Virus record (IMG/VR): IMGVR_UViG_3300002063_000002
Location: 1-46,820 of that record
Origin: a virus
Direction: 5' to 3' (one strand)
DNA: 46,820 nt
The position numbers were made by a program, and so were the translations under genes. The notes beneath the pieces were generated by a model. That model made no database searches. It saw only the letters and a program-made list of their open reading frames with translations, and had not been told where the DNA came from. This document shows positions 20,539 to 44,050 of this stretch, piece after piece. Every line of letters starts with the position of its first letter. Positions within the stretch are counted from its first letter, which is position 1.

Positions 20539-21129
20539 ATGAAAATAGAAAACCCATTAATTTATGTAGTACTGTTCGTTGCAGCATGTATTGCTTTTCC
20601 GCCAGTCATTGTATTGGGTTTTTTCTATCCCATATGGAAGCATTTTGTTTTACCTTTACTTAAATTACAAAGGCCAGACTACTCTCTTAAAAAACATTTC
20701 TTTCCTATATTTAAAGTGTTCGCTTTAATATTAGATCAAGCAGCGAACGCTGTTGCAGGTGAACTAGGAAACGATTTGAATATCATTATGAAAGATGGTG
20801 ATTATCATCCAGAAGCATATAAGTACGGTAAGCCATACGACACGATATCTGAGGTTACTGGTGTTAACGAGCAAAGAGGCGTGTTAACTAAATTTGGATT
20901 ATTCTTTACTAAGATGCTTGGTATCGTATTGAATGATAATCATTCTATTTTGGCTGTCTCTTATACACATCCACAAGAGTATAACTATGGGGCACCAATC
21001 TTAATGTGGGTAAACTTCAGGGGGATGTTTGGCGTTGACAATTTAATATATATACAGTGTGCAATGTCGTTGAAGAACGGTAACTACTTAAATACGTGTA
21101 GAAACACAAAATTCAGACAGTGTGGCTAG
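20539..21129 (+). CDS. Membrane protein of the lysis region; its 3' end overlaps the tmRNA gene
   Basis: Start at ATG 20539 (TAA-T-ATG junction). N-terminal TM helix (LIYVVLFVAACIAFPPVIVLGFF). The last 36 codons (21021-21129) coincide with the tmRNA 5' region. Confidence 0.55.
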   Translation: MKIENPLIYVVLFVAACIAFPPVIVLGFFYPIWKHFVLPLLKLQRPDYSLKKHFFPIFKVFALILDQAANAVAGELGNDLNIIMKDGDYHPEAYKYGKPYDTISEVTGVNEQRGVLTKFGLFFTKMLGIVLNDNHSILAVSYTHPQEYNYGAPILMWVNFRGMFGVDNLIYIQCAMSLKNGNYLNTCRNTKFRQCG

Positions 21130-21356
21130 CCCATTTATGTCTCTGTTGGTAGGAAACACAGTTTCAGTCTAACAGCAGCACGCACACGATCCTGTCGGAG
21201 TTGGTGCGTCCTGAGTGATATCCGACAATCTTTTTTTCTGTAGAGAATTGAAACATGTTTGGTAGAACTTTAAACTACCTGGTGGAAGCACTCCTTATCA
21301 TTGTCGAGCATTGTATATAGTTATTTTGGACGGGGGTTCGATTCCCCCCATCTCCA
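21021..21356 (+). ncRNA. ssrA: tmRNA (transfer-messenger RNA), one-piece, 336 nt, CCA not encoded
   Basis: The 7-bp acceptor stem is GGGGATG (21021-27) with CATCTCC (21349-55), including a G3:U70 wobble and discriminator A. T-arm GGGGG-TTCGATT-CCCCC (21332-48). 5' GGCGTTGAC D-analogue. P2 helix is 21049-56 with 21312-19. An H-type pseudoknot is formed by 21176-85/21204-13 and 21193-99/21221-27. Confidence 0.85.
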
Positions 21357-21370
21357 CAAAATATGATAAT

Positions 21371-30381: not shown

Positions 30382-30924
30382 ATGGGACTAACTAAACAAG
30401 AAGTACTAAAACTACAACAGCAAGGTGTATCCAACGAACGAATTCGTGCGTTTGCCAAAGAGCGATCTGCGGAATCTGAAAAAGGATTCTTTGGTAAAGC
30501 TGCTGATTTTAATAAATCAGTAAGTGAAGGGATAGGAGAGTTCAGCGAAGGATTTGTGAAAGGAGGAATAGATCTAGGAAGACAAACACTTGGAGCACTA
30601 GATAAAATAGGTGAGTTCGGATTAGACAATACTGTGGGGAGAATAACAGGTAAGTCTGTAAAAGAAACACGAGATGACTTTGGCGGAGAAGGTAAATTCA
30701 TTCAAAACATAAGACAAAGCGAAACACCTGAATCACTACAACGTGAAGGAGGTCTTCAGAAATTCGGAGGATTCGCTGCGGAAATTGGAGGACTAGCTGC
30801 TCCTATCACGAAAATAAGTAAGGCTACAACTGCGATACAAGGACTCAAGGCTTTCCAGAACGAGTCTACTGATGCAAACCAACAAGAACTTACTCAAAGG
30901 AGTAGCTGGTGTCCTTTCTGGTAA
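30382..30924 (+). CDS. Internal virion protein, N-terminal part (possibly fused to the next ORF)
   Basis: 180 aa, Gly-rich helical. Overlaps the next ORF by 53 nt, with that ORF in the +1 frame. Confidence 0.5.
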   Translation: MGLTKQEVLKLQQQGVSNERIRAFAKERSAESEKGFFGKAADFNKSVSEGIGEFSEGFVKGGIDLGRQTLGALDKIGEFGLDNTVGRITGKSVKETRDDFGGEGKFIQNIRQSETPESLQREGGLQKFGGFAAEIGGLAAPITKISKATTAIQGLKAFQNESTDANQQELTQRSSWCPFW

Positions 30925-31885
30925 AGGTACTCGAGCTATTGATGCTATATTAGAAAACCCAGTAGAGGCTATGCGTGGTTTGCGAGACGATGGATCAGAT
31001 ATTCTTACTCAAAGCGTAAAAGAAATATCTGATGGCGCTGAGTTGTTACGAGAAAAAGCAGCACGAGAATTCCGAGTCGCCGCTGATGCATTGCCAAAAA
31101 CAGCTATCCCAATTAAGAATGTAATTGCAGACACAGATGCGCTACTAGAAGACTTTGGGTTACTATTTAAAAAAGGAGAAAACGGAAAGTCACTTGATGC
31201 TGATCTATCACTATTTGATAAAAACGAAGCAGGGCGACTACAAGAAGCATACGATGTAATGAAGTCATGGTCAGATACATCAGCTCAAGGCCTACACACG
31301 TTAAGTCGTAAGCTACAGAATTTCACTAAACCAGGTGAGCAGTCACCAGAACTTAATGCTGTTATTGGTAACATGTCTCGAAATGTGCTGGACACGCTTG
31401 GAAATGCTGTGCCTGACGCTCGAGTTATGCTTGATAAGTACAAAGCTGCCCATGAAACCTTAGACGCTCTCATGCAAGAATTTCGTGTCTCAGGGTACAA
31501 GGGAGGTCAAACAGCTGCAGAAGAGATTAAAACAGGTACTAAAGTAAACAACTTGTTTACCGGTGAAAAAACATTAGCTACTGAAGCGTTAGACAAAGTA
31601 GCTGACGCAACAGCAATTCAAGCGCGAGAAGCTGGTCGTCAAATGAATGAACTAGTATCTCGAGCGAATGCCTCTATCGGAGAAACTGTTGGAGGATTAC
31701 TTAAATCAGTGATCAGCCCACGAATGATTGGAGAAATAACTGCCAAAACTGGGATTGCCAAAAACCAGATTGATGAAATTATATCTGCATTCGAAAATGA
31801 GTTCCTCAAAGCAGGAGCCACAACTGAGCCGTTAGTGCGTGAGTTCTTGGAATCAATGAACATCATCGAAGGAGATTCAGAATAA
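30872..31885 (+). CDS. Internal virion protein, C-terminal part (possibly fused to the previous ORF)
   Basis: 337 aa with the same compositional style as 30382-30924. This frame is open from 30815. Confidence 0.5.
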   Translation: MQTNKNLLKGVAGVLSGKGTRAIDAILENPVEAMRGLRDDGSDILTQSVKEISDGAELLREKAAREFRVAADALPKTAIPIKNVIADTDALLEDFGLLFKKGENGKSLDADLSLFDKNEAGRLQEAYDVMKSWSDTSAQGLHTLSRKLQNFTKPGEQSPELNAVIGNMSRNVLDTLGNAVPDARVMLDKYKAAHETLDALMQEFRVSGYKGGQTAAEEIKTGTKVNNLFTGEKTLATEALDKVADATAIQAREAGRQMNELVSRANASIGETVGGLLKSVISPRMIGEITAKTGIAKNQIDEIISAFENEFLKAGATTEPLVREFLESMNIIEGDSE

Positions 31886-32240: not shown

Positions 32241-33107
32241 TTATATAGTAATCGCTTTTTCTGCCGCTTTTTTAATTAACACCTTACCACTACTGTCGGT
32301 TAACCAACGAGAAAGTGCTAATGTTTTTCTGTAGCCAGCAAATGCCTTGGTCACACTTGGGATAACACGAAGTTCATACGCCGCCTTCGTTTTATCTAAC
32401 CTAAGAATCCAGTGTATTTTTGGCTTCATTCCAGTAAGGCTAGTGAACCCTTTACTGTAAGCTGCCACCTGCATTGCGTAAGTATCCTTATCAATTGAAT
32501 TACTTGTTTTGAAATCAATAACTGCCAATTTGTTATCTATCAAACATAAGAAGTCCAGAGTACCACCAACCTTAACCGATGGTACAGCCACCAATAGCTC
32601 ACTCCAGATAGGAGTAATCTCAGGATGTTCTGCAAAGAAACGTTGAGCACTGTATGCAATTGCATAGAGTCTCGGATCAGATTCAATGTCTTTCTTTTTT
32701 ATGTACGCCTCAATGAATGGAGTGATATCTAACGGCCTTTCTCGTTTTTCAATCCACTCATTCAAGTAATCCTCAATAACCTCGTGACCTTTGGTACCTA
32801 TATCCCCAGCATCTTTAAACGTTTCATCGTGAACTAACGTTGCACGTTTCAAGACTTCGGGGGTGATAGGTGCACCCCTGTCTACAAATTTAGCAATATA
32901 TTCAGTAGCTTGATTAGCCGCCCACTTTTTTAAGTGAGGAGAACTGATTATATTGAGCGGTTGTGTTACGGATATGTAGAGTTCATCTCTCGGTTTGTAC
33001 CGGTAGAAGTGAGCCCACTTAGTGTGCTCGGCTACTATCATATCTTTTGGAATCAGCTCTCGAATTTTTTTACGAATTGCCAGAGCTGATTGGTCCGCCA
33101 CCTGCAT
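32241..33107 (-). CDS. PD-(D/E)xK (RecB/Cas4-like, DUF2800-type) exonuclease
   Basis: 288 aa. GTKGHEVIEDY, then GGTLDFLCLIDNKLAVIDFKTS (D...D-x-K) and YAMQVAAYSKG (QxxxY). Confidence 0.7.
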   Translation of the reverse strand: MQVADQSALAIRKKIRELIPKDMIVAEHTKWAHFYRYKPRDELYISVTQPLNIISSPHLKKWAANQATEYIAKFVDRGAPITPEVLKRATLVHDETFKDAGDIGTKGHEVIEDYLNEWIEKRERPLDITPFIEAYIKKKDIESDPRLYAIAYSAQRFFAEHPEITPIWSELLVAVPSVKVGGTLDFLCLIDNKLAVIDFKTSNSIDKDTYAMQVAAYSKGFTSLTGMKPKIHWILRLDKTKAAYELRVIPSVTKAFAGYRKTLALSRWLTDSSGKVLIKKAAEKAITI

Positions 33108-33703
33108 TAGAATGGTTTGTTACGATTCTCTTCTGCGGCTGCCGCATCTGCCGGAGTGGTATCCGTTGATTGAATTGCAGTAAGCGCTTCAACTGCAGCA
33201 GCTTTCACTTCCTCGTTGATCATTACCCCCTTACCATCAGCTGATGGGTACGCTAGAGCTTCAACAATTTTTGCATCATTACCGTAGTCTGATGGTTTTG
33301 TTTCTTTGAAGTTAACTTTACATACTCCATACAATGGAACTTTTTTAAGTTGCTGTAGCAAGATAGAATCTTTAGTAGTACCGTCAGCGTTGTGAGCGAT
33401 GTTTGCATACACTCGCCAATCTTCTTCAGCACCAATAGATGTCTCAACTAATTCACTTGCTTCGTAACCCTTAACCACTTTACCTTCTGCGTCTCGAGGA
33501 GGTAGGTGTGTAAGACCTGCTGAACCGTCAGCGTTTGCTGGCATAGTCCGAATAGTAAAAATCATTTTTGATTTCTGGTATCGGTCAATGTTTTCATCGT
33601 GTTCAATTGAAACAATTGCTCCACTAATACAGTCCCCAGGTTTACCTGCGTTCCATGTAGGAGTACGCATTACTTGGGGATTTAAATCTGCTAAGTTTGT
33701 CAT
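33107..33703 (-). CDS. Putative ssDNA-binding protein (DUF2815-like)
   Basis: 198 aa, paired with the exonuclease by a 1-nt overlap. The Ala/Glu-rich C-terminal tail ends ...EENRNKPF, reminiscent of SSB tips ending in PF. Confidence 0.4.
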   Translation of the reverse strand: MTNLADLNPQVMRTPTWNAGKPGDCISGAIVSIEHDENIDRYQKSKMIFTIRTMPANADGSAGLTHLPPRDAEGKVVKGYEASELVETSIGAEEDWRVYANIAHNADGTTKDSILLQQLKKVPLYGVCKVNFKETKPSDYGNDAKIVEALAYPSADGKGVMINEEVKAAAVEALTAIQSTDTTPADAAAAEENRNKPF

Positions 33704-33870
33704 ATAGATAATTTATTATAATGACTGATAATTACTGCTGTTAGATAATTAAAATAATTTTTCTAGCTAACAGTGCGTCTTAACCCAGATAAAAAGTGAT
33801 TTGGGAAAGATTGTGCGTTCTTGAGGTCGATTTCAAGAATGCAGTATCTGAGTTAAAACACACTGTCAAC

Positions 33871-33899
33871 GAGAAATTGATAATTTAATAACGATCGAG
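33871..33899. repeat. Left arm of a 29-bp inverted repeat (GAGAAATTGATAATTTAATAACGATCGAG)
   Basis: Its reverse complement matches 34097-34125 at 28 of 29 positions, plus 2 more flanking bp. The arms are 197 bp apart. Confidence 0.9.
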
Positions 33900-34096
33900 G
33901 CAAGGATTTGACGAGGTCGGAACACCTTCACTAAAACCGACTTGTTATTGGGTGTTTTTGTTTAACTCGTATAGTCACCTTGCTCTTTCCTGAATGACTG
34001 CGTTTTTTATATACAGGATTTTTCAACAGACAGGATGTTCAGCGTCTCAATGTGCTTTTTTTGCATCCTCTGAATGTCATTTGCTTTCTAATCGCA

Positions 34097-34125
34097 CTCG
34101 ATCGTTATTAAATTATCAATTGCTC
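34097..34125. repeat. Right arm of the 29-bp inverted repeat (CTCGATCGTTATTAAATTATCAATTGCTC)
   Basis: See the left arm. Read directly. Confidence 0.9.
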
Positions 34126-34176
34126 GTGAAAATAATACTATCATTAATTTATAGTTTAGCAAGTGTATAACTTAAT

Positions 34177-34206
34177 TTGTAAAAAGTACAGTTGTCGTGA
34201 TATAGT
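34177..34206 (+). promoter_or_regulatory. Sigma70-like promoter candidate for the primase operon
   Basis: TTGTAA (34177-82), an 18-nt spacer, then TATAGT (34201-06), 65 nt upstream of ATG 34271. Pattern match only. Confidence 0.3.
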
Positions 34207-34270
34207 AAATGGAGTTACGGAAATGATTGTGACATTAAGTGATAATCAATAACACCTAGCTGGCAAACAA

Positions 34271-35245
34271 ATGAATACATTCAACCTACAAGAGTACTTG
34301 ATCTCTCGACACATTACCAAAGACTTCGGAATTACTATGGATGGCAATCGTATTGCTATACCTGTACACGATGTTGAAGGTAATTTTTTATTTAACAAAT
34401 ATCGTAAGCATCCTGATGATACATCAGATGCCCCTAAATACACTTATGAAAAAGGAACAACAGCACAATTATTTAATGCACATCGTCTCGACCCCAAAAA
34501 CGAAAGTGTTTATATCTACGAGGGGGAGTTCGATTGCCTTTTGGCAGCATCTCAAGGATATAATGCCGTCTCATCTACAGGAGGAGCTGCTACTTTCAAA
34601 GAAGAATGGGCACAATGGTTAGTAAAACAAGGGTACAAAGAATTTAATTTTTACTTTGATAATGACGAAGCAGGATTAACTGCTATGTCGCGACACGCAT
34701 GGAAACTCCGAGAAATTTTACCTACTATTACAATAAACACTATCGCTCGTAGATCATCTGAGGGGAAAAAAGTAAAAGATGTATCTGATGCAGAAGGTTG
34801 TAAGAGTGTAACGGTAATTCAATCAGTGCTAAAGTGGGAAGGTAGTTATAAAAAATACTTAGATGATGTAATTTACCACATAGCACAACATAACCATATC
34901 GGATTACCAGATATGGGAATGGAGAAGTTACGAGAACTTTGTTACGCAGAATACCAGCAATCAAAGAAACCAAAAACAACACAGGGCTATGATGGGCCGG
35001 ATCTTATTAGTGCAATGAAACAGGTACCCATTGAAGAGTATCTAACAGGTTGGAATCACGAGTTAAAAATGAATTGTATATGGCACAACGAAAAGACTCC
35101 ATCAATGCGTTTATATAAAGAGAACAATAAAGTGTACTGCTTTGGTTGTCAAAAGTCAGGAGATGTAATTGATGTGGTCGCTCAATTACAATGTAATGGA
35201 GATACAAGTGAGGCCTTAAAATTTATGAAGTCGAAACATAAATAA
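34271..35245 (+). CDS. DnaG-type DNA primase with TOPRIM first and the CHC2 zinc finger at the C-terminus
   Basis: 324 aa. PKYTYEKGTTAQLF (DnaG KY motif), YIYEGEFDCLL (TOPRIM Glu), FYFDNDEAG (DxD). The C-terminus VPIEEYL...CIWHNEKTPSMRLYKENNKVYCFGCQKSGDVIDV is a zf-CHC2 with C269, H272, C290 and C293. Confidence 0.8.
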   Translation: MNTFNLQEYLISRHITKDFGITMDGNRIAIPVHDVEGNFLFNKYRKHPDDTSDAPKYTYEKGTTAQLFNAHRLDPKNESVYIYEGEFDCLLAASQGYNAVSSTGGAATFKEEWAQWLVKQGYKEFNFYFDNDEAGLTAMSRHAWKLREILPTITINTIARRSSEGKKVKDVSDAEGCKSVTVIQSVLKWEGSYKKYLDDVIYHIAQHNHIGLPDMGMEKLRELCYAEYQQSKKPKTTQGYDGPDLISAMKQVPIEEYLTGWNHELKMNCIWHNEKTPSMRLYKENNKVYCFGCQKSGDVIDVVAQLQCNGDTSEALKFMKSKHK

Positions 35246-35258
35246 TTATTAGTCTTTT

Positions 35259-35329
35259 GTGTTCACCACTTCCCCGATACGCTAGGCGACTGCATGCCAG
35301 CCAGTCGGTGTCGGGGAAGTGGTGAACAC
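35259..35329 (+). other. 71-nt GC-rich hairpin with a perfect 19-bp stem between primase and helicase genes
   Basis: GTGTTCACCACTTCCCCGA (35259-77) pairs perfectly with TCGGGGAAGTGGTGAACAC (35311-29). The inner stem is CGACTG/CAGTCG. Confidence 0.85.
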
Positions 35330-35347
35330 AACGTAACCACGCTAGAT

Positions 35348-37098: not shown

Positions 37099-37517
37099 TC
37101 TCGTACATTACAGGTTCCCAAGGTAAAGCGCCGTCCAATTTGGTCGGCTCTTTCTGATGTGATTGATTTTCTTTCAGAAGACTCTGCCTCTTCCAGCCAA
37201 TCATCTATTTCAATCATTACAAAATCTTTGCGGTTACCTTGGTTCCAGTTAAATATTATTACTACATACGCTGGTACACCGAACAAAGAGAAACAATCAA
37301 ACGGCTTTTGCATCCGGTCAAAATCCGATATTTTATATACAAAAGGCCTCGGTCCGTTATTGGCAACGTCCAAGGCTCTTTCTTGATGGTCAGCCACAGC
37401 ACTAAATGGAATAGAATTAGCTTCTGCAGCTTTGAGTTCATATGCAGCAGTAAATGGAAAGCAGTTTTTTACCCACTTATTGAACTCTGTTTGAAATTGC
37501 TGTTCTCGCTTTTGCAT
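37095..37517 (-). CDS. RecU-like (PD-(D/E)xK) Holliday-junction resolvase candidate
   Basis: 140 aa. YELKAAEANSIPFSAVADHQERAL resembles the RecU segment FEAKET...FPL..F.DHQ, and AYVVIIF...FVMIEIDDW...ERKSIT resembles the RecU C-terminal half. Confidence 0.45.
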   Translation of the reverse strand: MQKREQQFQTEFNKWVKNCFPFTAAYELKAAEANSIPFSAVADHQERALDVANNGPRPFVYKISDFDRMQKPFDCFSLFGVPAYVVIIFNWNQGNRKDFVMIEIDDWLEEAESSERKSITSERADQIGRRFTLGTCNVRD

Positions 37518-43990: not shown

Positions 43991-44050
43991 GTGATTATTT
44001 ATTACCTATATATAGGTGATTACTTATTACCTATATATAGGTGATTAATC
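43991..44050. promoter_or_regulatory. Tandem 25-bp repeats, each carrying the 14-bp perfect palindrome ACCTATATATAGGT (candidate RHH operators)
   Basis: GTGATTA(T/C)TTATTACCTATATATAG occurs at 43991-44015 and 44016-44040, then GTGATTAATC. The palindromes are at 44004-44017 and 44029-44042, starting 4 nt upstream of the RHH start codon. Confidence 0.7.

What the first reader, a model, noticed from the sequence alone, without database searches (positions are those of the whole stretch)
33704..34270. 29-bp inverted repeats flanking a 197-bp structured segment in the largest internal intergenic region
GAGAAATTGATAATTTAATAACGATCGAG (33871-99) and its reverse complement (34097-34125, 28/29 identical plus 2 flanking bp) bracket 197 bp. 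They lie in the divergent region between the recombination genes (-) and the primase/helicase genes (+). The enclosed DNA is full of nested pairings. These include GCAAGG...CCTTGC and GACGAG...CTCGT, with a crossing GTCGG...CCGAC / AACACC...GGTGTT pseudoknot-like pattern. It also has short direct repeats (ACAGGAT x2, CTGAATG x2). Three readings are possible. First, a replication origin, given its position beside the primase. Second, an invertible promoter switch: IR length and spacer size match invertons, which are common in Bacteroidota, but no recombinase is encoded here. Third, a structured ncRNA whose ends are clamped by the IR stem.
Basis: partly seen in the sequence, partly recalled or inferred. 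Interest (0 to 1): 0.7.

Follow-up and report, generated by a model that had tools for sequence, protein, structure and literature searches.

The report
Clamped tRNA-Leu-like RNA gene in phage
The inverted repeat and the folded DNA between it are a gene, read on the minus strand, for a tRNA-leucine-derived non-coding RNA whose ends are zipped into a long stem; the family is widespread in uncultured phages, is absent from Rfam, and has no known function.

Summary
A 31-nt inverted repeat (30/31) at 33869-33899 / 34097-34127 encloses 197 nt, and it is the longest inverted repeat in the window. It is not an origin and not an invertible switch. It is the closing, acceptor-like stem of a tRNA-Leu-derived RNA on the minus strand.

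The strands GGUGACUAUACGAG and CUCGUCAAAUCC match exactly in 73 IMG/VR phage contigs and 18 MAG contigs. Those copies share one layout: a variable, co-varying closing stem of 7-31 bp, then U, a tRNA-Leu D-arm, a variable region, and the T-arm with its insertion.

A covariance model built without the window scores it 63.4 bits (E 1.4e-16). Rfam 15 and ARAGORN do not recognise it. Insertion-less relatives sit unannotated in cultured Firmicutes phages.

A relative about 99% identical in the flanks lacks exactly 243 bp here and keeps a 16-bp palindrome, so the gene is dispensable and recently gained or lost. The RNA identity is well supported. The function is inferred: a processed tRNA mimic acting in trans.

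The parts
34097..34127 (-). 5' strand of the closing (extended acceptor-like) stem of the RNA.
   Evidence: IR 30/31. In 61 family members the 8 nt before the U + D-box pair with nt 5-12 after the T-arm motif: 8/8 in 48 members and 7/8 in 11. All 8 pairs co-vary.
34083..34096 (-). U8-equivalent (34096) followed by a degenerate D-arm, GCGAUUAGAAAGC.
   Evidence: It occupies the position of the family's U + GGCGGAAUAGGUAGACGC box. It most resembles L122's GGCGGAAUAGAAAAGC. The model R1 skipped it with a local end, so this part is only weakly matched.
33984..34082 (-). Variable region V1, in the place of the anticodon and variable arms. It contains the hairpins GGAUGC...CAUCC and AAUGAC...GUCAUU.
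   Evidence: V1 is 23-107 nt in family members and cannot be aligned between them. ARAGORN finds no anticodon arm. Folds.
33900..33983 (-). T-arm module. P1 is GCAAGG/CCUUGC. The conserved strands are GGUGACUAUACGAG (plus-strand 33966-33979) and CUCGUCAAAUCC (33904-33915). P2 is ACGAG/CUCGU.
   Evidence: Exact match to the pattern found in 73 IMG/VR and 18 GTDB contigs. P1 co-varies: 3 of its 6 pairs change on both sides and 99.5% of cells are paired. Removing ACUAUACGAG...CUCGU leaves the T-loop UGCAAAU, which is the loop seen in insertion-less relatives.
33916..33965 (-). V2, the variable core of the T-loop insertion, with an H-type pseudoknot (AACACC/GGUGUU crossing GUCGG/CCGAC).
   Evidence: Stems located. 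Crossing helices are enriched in V2 across the family: 11 of 62 against 1.8 in shuffles.
33869..33899 (-). 3' strand of the closing stem.
33892..34104 (-). Full-length match to covariance model R1, which was built from 33 other phage copies.
   Evidence: 63.4 bits, E 1.4e-16, model positions 1-167. The next best hit in the window scores 14 bits.
33874..34116 (.). The 243-bp segment present here and absent from the close relative L005. The empty site there is ACGAGCAATTGCTCGT, a perfect 16-bp palindrome.
   Evidence: Pairwise alignment with one other mismatch across the aligned intergenic region and adjoining gene ends. Flank identity is 99.4% to the left.
33765..33870 (-). A second, very stable hairpin immediately downstream of the RNA gene on the minus strand. 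It may be a terminator or a processing structure. It is also present in L005.
   Evidence: MFE -48.8 kcal/mol, z -10. All five arm mismatches are G.U on the minus strand and A.C on the plus strand, read. Conserved in L005.
34135..34162 (-). Weak candidate promoter for the RNA gene, TTGCTA-16-TAGTAT (8/12). It would start transcription at about 34128, the edge of the 5' arm.
   Evidence: Read by eye. It falls below the threshold of the scan, so it is inference only.

Best explanation
The segment 33869-34127 is a gene on the minus strand for a roughly 260-nt structured non-coding RNA derived from tRNA-Leu.

Shown here:
- The two IR arms pair in the transcript to form a 31-bp closing helix. This helix is the extended equivalent of a tRNA acceptor stem.
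- Inside it, in tRNA order, come a U8-like base, a D-arm (degenerate in this copy), a variable region replacing the anticodon and variable arms, and a 6-bp T-stem.
- The T-loop (UG|CAAAU) is interrupted between positions 55 and 56 by a conserved module: ACUAU, then helix ACGAG/CUCGU, enclosing a 50-nt pseudoknot.
- The gene is an accessory cassette, because it is missing from a relative about 99% identical in the flanks.

Inferred:
- The RNA is transcribed leftward and released from its transcript by cleavage in the long double-stranded clamp. Clamp lengths in the family cluster at 21-23 bp, about two helical turns, which is the size of an RNase III substrate. Copies with 7-8 bp stems inside tRNA arrays would be cut out like tRNAs.
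- The RNA then acts in trans as a non-decoding tRNA mimic that presents the conserved elbow insertion to a conserved partner.

I put the RNA-gene and family identity at about 0.9. I put the tRNA-mimic/decoy role at about 0.35.
For: - An exact 26-nt two-part motif is shared with 73 IMG/VR phage contigs and 18 MAG contigs.
- All copies have the same layout at fixed offsets.
- Covariation on a 33-sequence alignment: 97.8% of cells are paired, against 38-47% when partners are slid. There are 150 double-change cells against 38.6 in shuffles, and all 8 closing-stem pairs change on both sides. The D-stem shows C-G to U-A changes.
- Strand: G.U-type mismatches outnumber A.C-type 51 to 15 in the closing stems when both are scored alike.
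- The covariance model R1, built without the window, finds only this site: 63.4 bits, E 1.4e-16, minus strand.
- tRNA ancestry: the D-box hits annotated tRNA-Leu genes in cyanophages. U8, A14, G18G19, G53-C61 and the UCAAAU part of the T-loop are kept. Copies lie inside phage tRNA arrays in the same orientation. After in-silico removal of the insertion, L160 is called tRNA-Leu(UAG).
- Insertion-less relatives with T-loop UGCAAAU score 31-58 bits with R1.
- Dispensability comes from comparison with L005.
- Clamp-length modes are 8, 12 and 21-23 bp.
Against: - There are no expression data of any kind.
- No convincing promoter lies upstream on the minus strand in the window: only an 8/12 match found by eye. 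Promoter-like sites are not enriched upstream of family members: 11% against 8% in controls.
- The window's D-arm is degenerate and was not matched by the model.
- No conserved neighbouring protein points to a partner; the commonest neighbour cluster occurs in 9 of 92 loci.
- No antisense target above chance exists within the phage.
- RNase III processing, tRNA-enzyme recognition and any decoy role are untested inferences.
- The family seed was collected with an exact pattern, so P2 and the conserved strands could not vary in this sample.
Confidence: 0.85

Rival explanations
1. The segment is a miniature inverted-repeat mobile DNA element. The IR arms would be terminal inverted repeats (about 20-21 bp, GATAATTTAATAACGATCGAG), and the element would have inserted into the centre of a 16-bp palindrome with a 4-6-bp target duplication (CAATTG). 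This does not exclude the RNA-gene reading, because the cassette could be both.
For: - There is a precise 243-bp presence/absence difference against L005. The empty site is ACGAG-CAATTG-CTCGT and the filled site is flanked by AAATTG...CAATTG.
- If the outer 10 bp belong to the target, the remaining arm is 21 bp, which is the modal clamp length in the family.
- L159 and L160 share only the IR-bounded unit. The arms are 100% identical over 39-44 nt, while the flanking genomes are unrelated.
Against: - No other copy carries these arms. The 20-mer gives 0 hits in IMG/VR and 1 chance-like single-arm hit in JGI metagenomes. The paired-arm pattern gives 0 hits in GTDB genomes.
- No transposase is present.
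- Across the family the arms differ in sequence and co-vary as an RNA helix, and some are only 7-8 bp long. A TIR family would keep its arm sequence.
- The same indel is equally well explained by slippage between the CAATTG direct repeats inside the arms. Either model needs one extra substitution (A at 33874).
- No outgroup exists: the adjacent 198-aa protein occurs only in the window and L005.
Confidence: 0.25
2. It is a true tRNA-Leu-type gene whose T-loop carries a small intron (ACUAUACGAG...CUCGU). Splicing would restore a functional tRNA or tRNA-like molecule.
For: - Removing the insertion restores exactly the T-loop UGCAAAU of the insertion-less relatives.
- L160 becomes an ARAGORN tRNA-Leu(UAG) after the removal.
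- The ends of the insertion are invariant.
Against: - After removal, only 2 of 74 copies are called by ARAGORN at the element itself: L160 as tRNA-Leu and L154 with an undetermined 4-base anticodon. The other three calls are neighbouring tRNAs. The window copy is not called.
- Insertion-less relatives are also not recognised as tRNAs.
- T-loop position 55 is G, not U.
- At 45-75 nt the insertion is too small for a group I or group II intron, and Rfam finds no ribozyme.
- No splicing enzyme is associated with it.
Confidence: 0.08
3. It is the phage replication origin, with the IR and hairpins acting as a primase or initiator loading site next to the primase gene.
For: - It lies in the divergent region beside the primase.
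- The DNA is strongly structured.
Against: - The element is absent from L005, whose flanks are about 99% identical and which keeps the same replication genes.
- Family copies lie in unrelated contexts and in tRNA arrays.
- The 7-nt direct repeats are no more than chance would give, and no other repeat array showed up in the repeat scan.
- G.U asymmetry and tRNA invariants indicate selection on an RNA.
Confidence: 0.03
4. It is an invertible promoter switch (inverton) flipped by a host recombinase acting at the IR.
Against: - No recombinase was found among 50 ORFs.
- No promoter-like site lies inside 33900-34096 on either strand.
- The ENA scaffold, the Logan contig and the window all have one orientation.
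- The interior has a fixed orientation relative to its arms in all 74 copies examined (73 IMG/VR copies and the window), because D-arm, T-arm and arms form one RNA.
- Some arms are only 7-8 bp long.
- The Bacteroidota host is unsupported.
Confidence: 0.02

Closest known systems
Unannotated tRNA-Leu-like genes of cultured Firmicutes phages: Lactobacillus phage Lenus MG252693 about 37360-37467, Enterococcus phages EG-TP1 and vB_Edu_21C1, Bacillus phage KLEB27-1, and thermophilic phage D6E
   Same: They share the D-arm box GGCGGAAUAGGUAGACGC, the U8, and the 6-bp T-stem with G at T-loop position 55 (UGCAAAU). The variable middle has no anticodon arm. They sit in tRNA arrays. R1 scores them 31-58 bits, and ARAGORN and the record annotations are silent.
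   Different: They lack the conserved T-loop insertion and have 7-8-bp acceptor stems rather than a 31-bp clamp. As far as I could find they are themselves undescribed.
Class II tRNA-Leu
   Same: The 5' half is nearly identical to tRNA-Leu, and the D-box hits annotated phage tRNA-Leu genes. U8, A14, G18G19, G53-C61 and the T-loop CAAAU are retained. Many members have a hairpin just before the T-stem, like a long variable arm.
   Different: There is no anticodon arm. Position 55 is G. The T-stem is 6 bp, so acceptor plus T-stem make 13 bp. A 45-75-nt structured insertion sits in the T-loop. The acceptor stem is extended to as much as 31 bp, and no CCA is encoded.
Bacterial and phage Y RNAs of the YrlA type (Chen et al. 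2014, PMC4201824)
   Same: Both are non-coding tRNA mimics with D- and T-arm-like modules, a stem formed by the 5' and 3' ends, and occurrence in phages.
   Different: In YrlA the order is T-arm, acceptor-like hairpin, D-arm, and the terminal stem carries a conserved Ro60/Rsr-binding site next to an rsr gene. Here the order is the native tRNA order, D then T. The terminal stem has no conserved sequence. No TROVE/Ro60 family was among the hits for the window's ORFs.
rRNA and phage-mRNA processing stalks cut by RNase III
   Same: A long-range duplex of about two helical turns, formed by sequences flanking a stable RNA, would allow excision from a longer transcript. Clamp lengths cluster at 21-23 bp.
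   Different: This is a resemblance only. No cleavage data exist, and some family members have 7-12-bp stems.
Candidate structured RNAs catalogued from IMG/VR (Fremin et al. 2023, PMC10690425)
   Same: That survey reports about 10,000 unnamed structured-RNA candidates in phages, including tRNA-like ones, so this family may be among them.
   Different: The text describes no T-loop insertion, no clamp and no tRNA-Leu origin. The supplementary models are not held here and could not be checked.

Membership tests
   Exact match on the minus strand at 33904-33979. The module aligns to the model throughout.
   The 31-bp helix sits at the same offsets as in 61 other members.
   The window has U + GCGAUUAGAAAGC, with a 2-3-bp stem and one of the two G18G19 guanines kept. 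The model bypassed it with a local end. L122 has a similar variant.
   63.4 bits, E 1.4e-16, model positions 1-167
Canonical tRNA (Rfam RF00005) | Cloverleaf with a 7-nt anticodon loop and a 7-bp acceptor stem, detectable by tRNA finders | tested here: not met
   ARAGORN and Rfam find nothing here, even at E up to 10. ARAGORN still finds nothing after the insertion is removed in silico.
YrlA / Y RNA | Permuted module order (T-arm, then acceptor-like hairpin, then D-arm), with a conserved Ro60-binding terminal stem | tested here: not met
   The order here is D-arm then T-arm, and the terminal stem varies in sequence. The definition is taken from PMC4201824.
YrlA / Y RNA | Encoded next to a Ro60/TROVE gene | tested here: not met
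   No TROVE family was among the Pfam hits for the 9 neighbouring proteins. No Ro60-like family was among the PHROG families hit by 41 further ORFs. No protein is shared across the neighbourhoods of family members.
MITE / non-autonomous TIR transposon | Terminal inverted repeats | tested here: met
   31-nt IR
MITE / non-autonomous TIR transposon | Target-site duplication flanking the element, compared with an empty site | tested here: inconclusive
   AAATTG and CAATTG flank the insert (5/6 match), and the empty site has a single CAATTG. Because the hexamer is palindromic and lies inside the IR, deletion by slippage gives the same picture.
MITE / non-autonomous TIR transposon | Several copies sharing the TIR sequence, or a parent IS | tested here: not met
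   0 in the window, 0 in IMG/VR, 1 chance-like hit in JGI metagenomes, and 0 paired arms in GTDB
Inverton (invertible promoter) | A site-specific recombinase, a promoter inside the segment, and both orientations present in the population | tested here: not met
   No recombinase was found. No internal promoter-like site is predicted. Three assemblies show one orientation. The read-level test could not be run.
Replication origin | Required in, and conserved among, close relatives that share the replication module | tested here: not met
   Absent from L005

The most novel reading that the evidence does not exclude
The IR-clamped tRNA-Leu mimic is a horizontally mobile RNA cassette. It would spread between unrelated phage genomes by hairpin- or palindrome-directed insertion. 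Its fast-changing modules (V1 and V2) on a fixed tRNA scaffold would give each copy its own specificity. Two examples: a decoy or inhibitor of tRNA-targeting immune nucleases, or a guide-like RNA presented from the tRNA elbow.
Probability: 0.15. Interest if true: 0.9.

Novelty: new variant of a known kind. Interest (0 to 1): 0.75.

Why it matters
tRNA mimics are a known kind of RNA; examples are tmRNA, Y RNAs and viral tRNA-like structures. This one has features I could not find described anywhere:
- a conserved, pseudoknotted module inserted at the outer corner of the tRNA elbow, between T-loop positions 55 and 56;
- a long double-stranded clamp in place of the acceptor stem;
- a middle region that is replaced wholesale even between copies with identical arms.

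The family is invisible to tRNA finders and to Rfam. Yet it occurs in at least 90 phage or phage-like contigs in the insertion-bearing form, and in cultured Lactobacillus, Enterococcus, Bacillus and thermophilic (D6E) phages in the simpler form.

The near-invariance of 26 unpaired or loop-adjacent nucleotides across very different phages points to a conserved cellular partner. Identifying it could reveal a new way in which phages exploit or protect the host tRNA machinery. Practically, these genes should be annotated, and long inverted repeats in phage intergenic regions should not be assumed to be origins or switches.

Tried and rejected
- **Rfam.** Gathering-threshold scan of the whole window and E-value scans of the region, L064 and ten member loci. 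Nothing was found except the unrelated phage tmRNA and true tRNAs.
- **Close DNA relatives in GenBank phages.** None in near or distant mode.
- **Exact-peptide search for close relatives in IMG/VR.** None.
- **Searching for the IR arm as a transposon end.** No further copies. The single metagenome hit, L007, is a one-arm match in unrelated GC-rich DNA, so I treated it as chance.
- **A structural analogue upstream of the primase in 80 distant primase-family loci.** None was found, although this search brought in L064, which gave the key lead.
- **A conserved neighbouring protein.** None.
- **Splicing hypothesis.** In-silico removal of the insertion makes only L160 a recognisable tRNA-Leu, with one more undetermined call at L154.
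- **Antisense targets of the RNA within the phage.** The longest match is 12 nt, which is chance level.
- **Promoter enrichment upstream of family members.** None.
- **An outgroup to polarise the indel.** The adjacent 198-aa protein exists only in the window and L005 among 5.8 billion proteins.
- **A common fold for V1.** Folds are heterogeneous, median z -1.2.
- **Literature.** Five full-text searches and two papers read found no description of this RNA.
Full report
**1. The observation**

The window carries a 31-nt inverted repeat, 33869-33899 and 34097-34127, with 30 of 31 positions complementary and 197 nt between the arms. The arm sequence occurs only at these two places at up to three mismatches. 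None of 100 shuffles gave a match. It is the longest inverted repeat within 1.5 kb in the whole window.

It lies in the 567-bp gap between a 198-aa gene of unknown family on the minus strand and a Toprim + CHC2 primase on the plus strand. A PD-(D/E)XK exonuclease gene follows the 198-aa gene. The two 7-nt direct repeats exist but are what chance would give in 197 nt.

**2. First clue: the element is dispensable**

The window's own sequence is found in an ENA scaffold and in Logan contigs, in the same orientation. The only close relative in 5.8 billion proteins is a JGI contig, L005, whose primase is 82% identical.

L005's DNA is 99.4% identical to the window to the left of the site, and 100% identical for the first 214 bp to the right. 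It lacks exactly 33874-34116, a 243-bp segment. What remains in L005 is ACGAGCAATTGCTCGT, a perfect 16-bp palindrome.

So the element is a recent gain or loss. It cannot be an essential origin.

**3. Second clue: a shared core**

I collected 80 distant primase-family loci from IMG/VR. None had a homologue of the whole element and none had a long repeat upstream of the primase.

One of them, L064, has another clamped segment (23-nt arms) next to a tRNA-Asn gene. It shares a motif with the window's minus strand: GCRAGG-UGACUAUA-CGAG ... CUCG-UCAAAU-CCYUGC, including a compensatory A-U to G-C change.

The pattern GGTGACTATACGAG-N30-60-CTCGTCAAATCC then matched 73 IMG/VR contigs. It also matched 18 GTDB contigs, all from MAGs, many of phage size and several binned with CPR bacteria.

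**4. Anatomy of the family**

Lined up on the motif, all copies have the same plan:
- a closing helix whose sequence differs from copy to copy;
- one U;
- the box GGCGGAAUAGGUAGACGC;
- a variable stretch of 23-107 nt;
- usually AUG;
- a 6-bp helix P1;
- UGACUAUA;
- a helix P2 (ACGAG/CUCGU) around a variable 30-60 nt;
- UCAAAU;
- the return strand of P1;
- one C;
- the return strand of the closing helix.

The box is the 5' part of tRNA-Leu, and blastn with it hits annotated tRNA-Leu genes of cyanophages. The U, A14, G18G19, the G53-C61 pair and the CAAAU of the T-loop are the tRNA invariants.

Related genes in cultured phages (Lenus, EG-TP1, KLEB27-1, vB_Edu_21C1, D6E) and in L069 have the same D-arm and T-stem but a plain 7-nt T-loop, UGCAAAU. 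The conserved module ACUAUACGAG...CUCGU is therefore an insertion between T-loop positions 55 and 56, at the outer corner of the tRNA elbow.

None of these genes is called by ARAGORN or annotated in the records. Where a phage has tRNA genes, the element lies among them on the same strand.

**5. Is it an RNA, and on which strand?**

I tested a 33-sequence alignment in which the columns were fixed by the conserved blocks, not by pairing. The four helices are 97.8% paired, against 38-47% when the partners are slid by one to three columns. There are 150 cells changed on both sides, against 38.6 in shuffles. All eight closing-stem pairs, three P1 pairs and one D-stem pair change on both sides.

When G.U and A.C are scored alike, the closing stems hold 51 G.U-type mismatches and 15 A.C-type mismatches on the motif strand. 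That fits selection on a transcript of that strand, which in the window is the minus strand.

A covariance model built from those 33 sequences, without the window, scores the window at 33892-34104 on the minus strand with 63.4 bits and E 1.4e-16. Nothing else in the window exceeds 14 bits. The one weak point is the window's D-arm (GCGAUUAGAAAGC), which the model skipped. L122 has a similar variant.

**6.

- The 29-31-nt IR is the closing helix.
- The "GCAAGG...CCTTGC" pair is the T-stem, P1.
- The "GACGAG...CTCGT" pair is P2.
- The crossing pairs lie in the variable core of the insertion. Crossing helices with both stems of at least 5 bp occur there in 11 of 62 members, against 1.8 +/- 1.4 in shuffles. 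A pseudoknot is therefore a recurrent feature, though not a universal one at that threshold.

**7. How it probably works (inference)**

Closing-stem lengths fall into groups of about 8, 12 and 21-23 bp. The window's 31 bp is the longest.

Eight base pairs is a tRNA acceptor stem, which suits excision by tRNA-processing enzymes within arrays. Twenty-one to twenty-three base pairs is two turns of double-stranded RNA, the classic RNase III substrate. That suits excision from a longer transcript when the gene stands alone.

In line with co-transcription, promoter-like sites are not enriched upstream of members. In the window only a weak candidate exists, TTGCTA-16-TAGTAT at 34162-34135, which would start transcription at the edge of the 5' arm (read; below the threshold).

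Downstream on the minus strand lies a second hairpin, 33765-33870, with -48.8 kcal/mol and z -10. All five of its arm mismatches are G.U on the minus strand. It may end or process the transcript, and L005 has it too.

The mature RNA keeps the acceptor/T-arm/D-arm "top half" of tRNA-Leu and has no anticodon arm. So I expect a non-decoding tRNA mimic acting in trans. The near-invariant loop nucleotides would contact a conserved partner. What that partner is remains open:
- no protein is consistently encoded nearby;
- no antisense target exists in the phage.

**8. Gain or loss?**

The filled site reads ACGAG-AAATTG-[arm...arm]-CAATTG-CTCGT and the empty site reads ACGAG-CAATTG-CTCGT. Two explanations fit equally well:
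- insertion into the centre of a palindrome with a 6-bp duplication;
- deletion by slippage between the CAATTG copies, which face each other in the stem.

Each needs one extra substitution, the A at 33874. That base is also the only mismatch in the IR.

Two points favour insertion. Without the outer 10 bp, the arm is 21 bp, the modal length. And L159 and L160 share only the clamped unit, with arms identical over 39-44 nt, unrelated flanks and a replaced interior. One point favours deletion: the palindrome needs no further explanation.

No outgroup exists. I leave this at about even odds.

The arms are not a transposon family in the usual sense, because no other copy carries them.

**9. Rejected readings**

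- *Origin.* The element is absent from L005, and family members sit in unrelated contexts.
- *Inverton.* There is no recombinase, no internal promoter and only one orientation in the assemblies. The interior and arms form one RNA with a fixed polarity. A read-level test is still worth doing.
- *Bacteroidota host.* This premise is not supported.

**10. Known or new?**

Rfam 15 has no match at permissive thresholds for the window, L064 or ten other members. GenBank phages hold the insertion-bearing form only in one uncultured genome, MW202647.

Full-text searches found no description. A 2023 catalogue of unnamed phage RNA candidates may include it, but that could not be checked.

YrlA-type Y RNAs are the nearest described concept, but they differ in module order, in having a conserved terminal stem, and in their Ro60 linkage.

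I classify this as a new variant of a known kind, a tRNA-derived mimic. The identity is solid and the function is unknown.

Noticed in passing
window 21021-21359 (+): A tmRNA gene sits inside this tailed-phage genome, among the genes for large unannotated proteins downstream of the structural genes. Rfam scores it 68.9 bits. ARAGORN reads an odd tag peptide, ARTRSCRSWCVLSDIRQSFFL*. Enterococcus phage vB_Edu_21C1 has a tmRNA gene ending one or two nt before its tRNA-Leu-like gene (L182 246-593, then 595-725).
   Followed up: partly
window 33765-33870 (-): A 106-nt hairpin with a stem of about 26 bp lies directly downstream of the RNA gene (-48.8 kcal/mol, z -10). All five arm mismatches are G.U on the minus strand. 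It is conserved in L005, which lacks the RNA gene. It may be a terminator, a processing site or a small RNA of its own. It produced the spurious miRNA-model hits in Rfam.
   Followed up: partly
window 35257-35280 / 35308-35331: A 24-nt inverted repeat (96%, 27-nt spacer) spans the gap between the primase gene and the next ORF, and covers that ORF's start. Distant primase-family loci have a repeat in the same place (L010 3936-4026, L011 3983-4060), so it may be a conserved regulatory or replication element.
   Followed up: partly
window 34271-35245 (+): The primase has its Toprim domain at the N-terminus (residues 81-150) and the CHC2 zinc ribbon at the C-terminus (264-317). This is the reverse of the DnaG order. 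All 120 listed homologues carry the same two domains, listed in that order.
   Followed up: no
window 30861/30862: The window lacks about 142-146 bp that are present in the otherwise identical ENA scaffold and in L005. This splits a 549-aa gene into overlapping ORFs of 180 and 337 aa (30382-30924 and 30872-31885). It is either a natural deletion variant or an assembly difference.
   Followed up: partly
window 33823-33827: Two Logan contigs of run SRR4188655 end here and overlap by only 5 nt. The position is the apex of the inner hairpin of the 33765-33870 structure. The ENA assembly reads straight through. The cause is unknown: it could be a coverage gap at a hairpin, or a physical DNA end.
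   Followed up: no
L159 709-928 and L160 4942-5166: Two otherwise unrelated phage contigs share only the clamped RNA unit. The arms are 100% identical over 39-44 nt. The D-loop, V1 and V2 are replaced outright. This looks like cassette exchange within a constant frame.
   Followed up: partly
L179 1195-1302, L180 1195-1287, L181 594-707, L182 595-725, L183 594-767: Cultured phages carry unannotated tRNA-Leu-like genes with T-loop UGCAAAU and no anticodon arm: Lactobacillus Lenus, Enterococcus EG-TP1 and vB_Edu_21C1, Bacillus KLEB27-1 and thermophilic D6E. They are the insertion-less relatives of the window's RNA and offer possible experimental systems.
   Followed up: partly
window 33107-33703 (-): The 198-aa protein next to the element has no family match. 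Its only relative among 5.8 billion proteins is the L005 copy. Its predicted promoter (CTAACA-18-TATAAT, 33744-33715) leaves almost no leader before the ATG at 33703.
   Followed up: partly
window 43991-44049: A cluster of overlapping AT-rich palindromes (24-25-nt arms, 80-88%) lies in another intergenic stretch.
   Followed up: no
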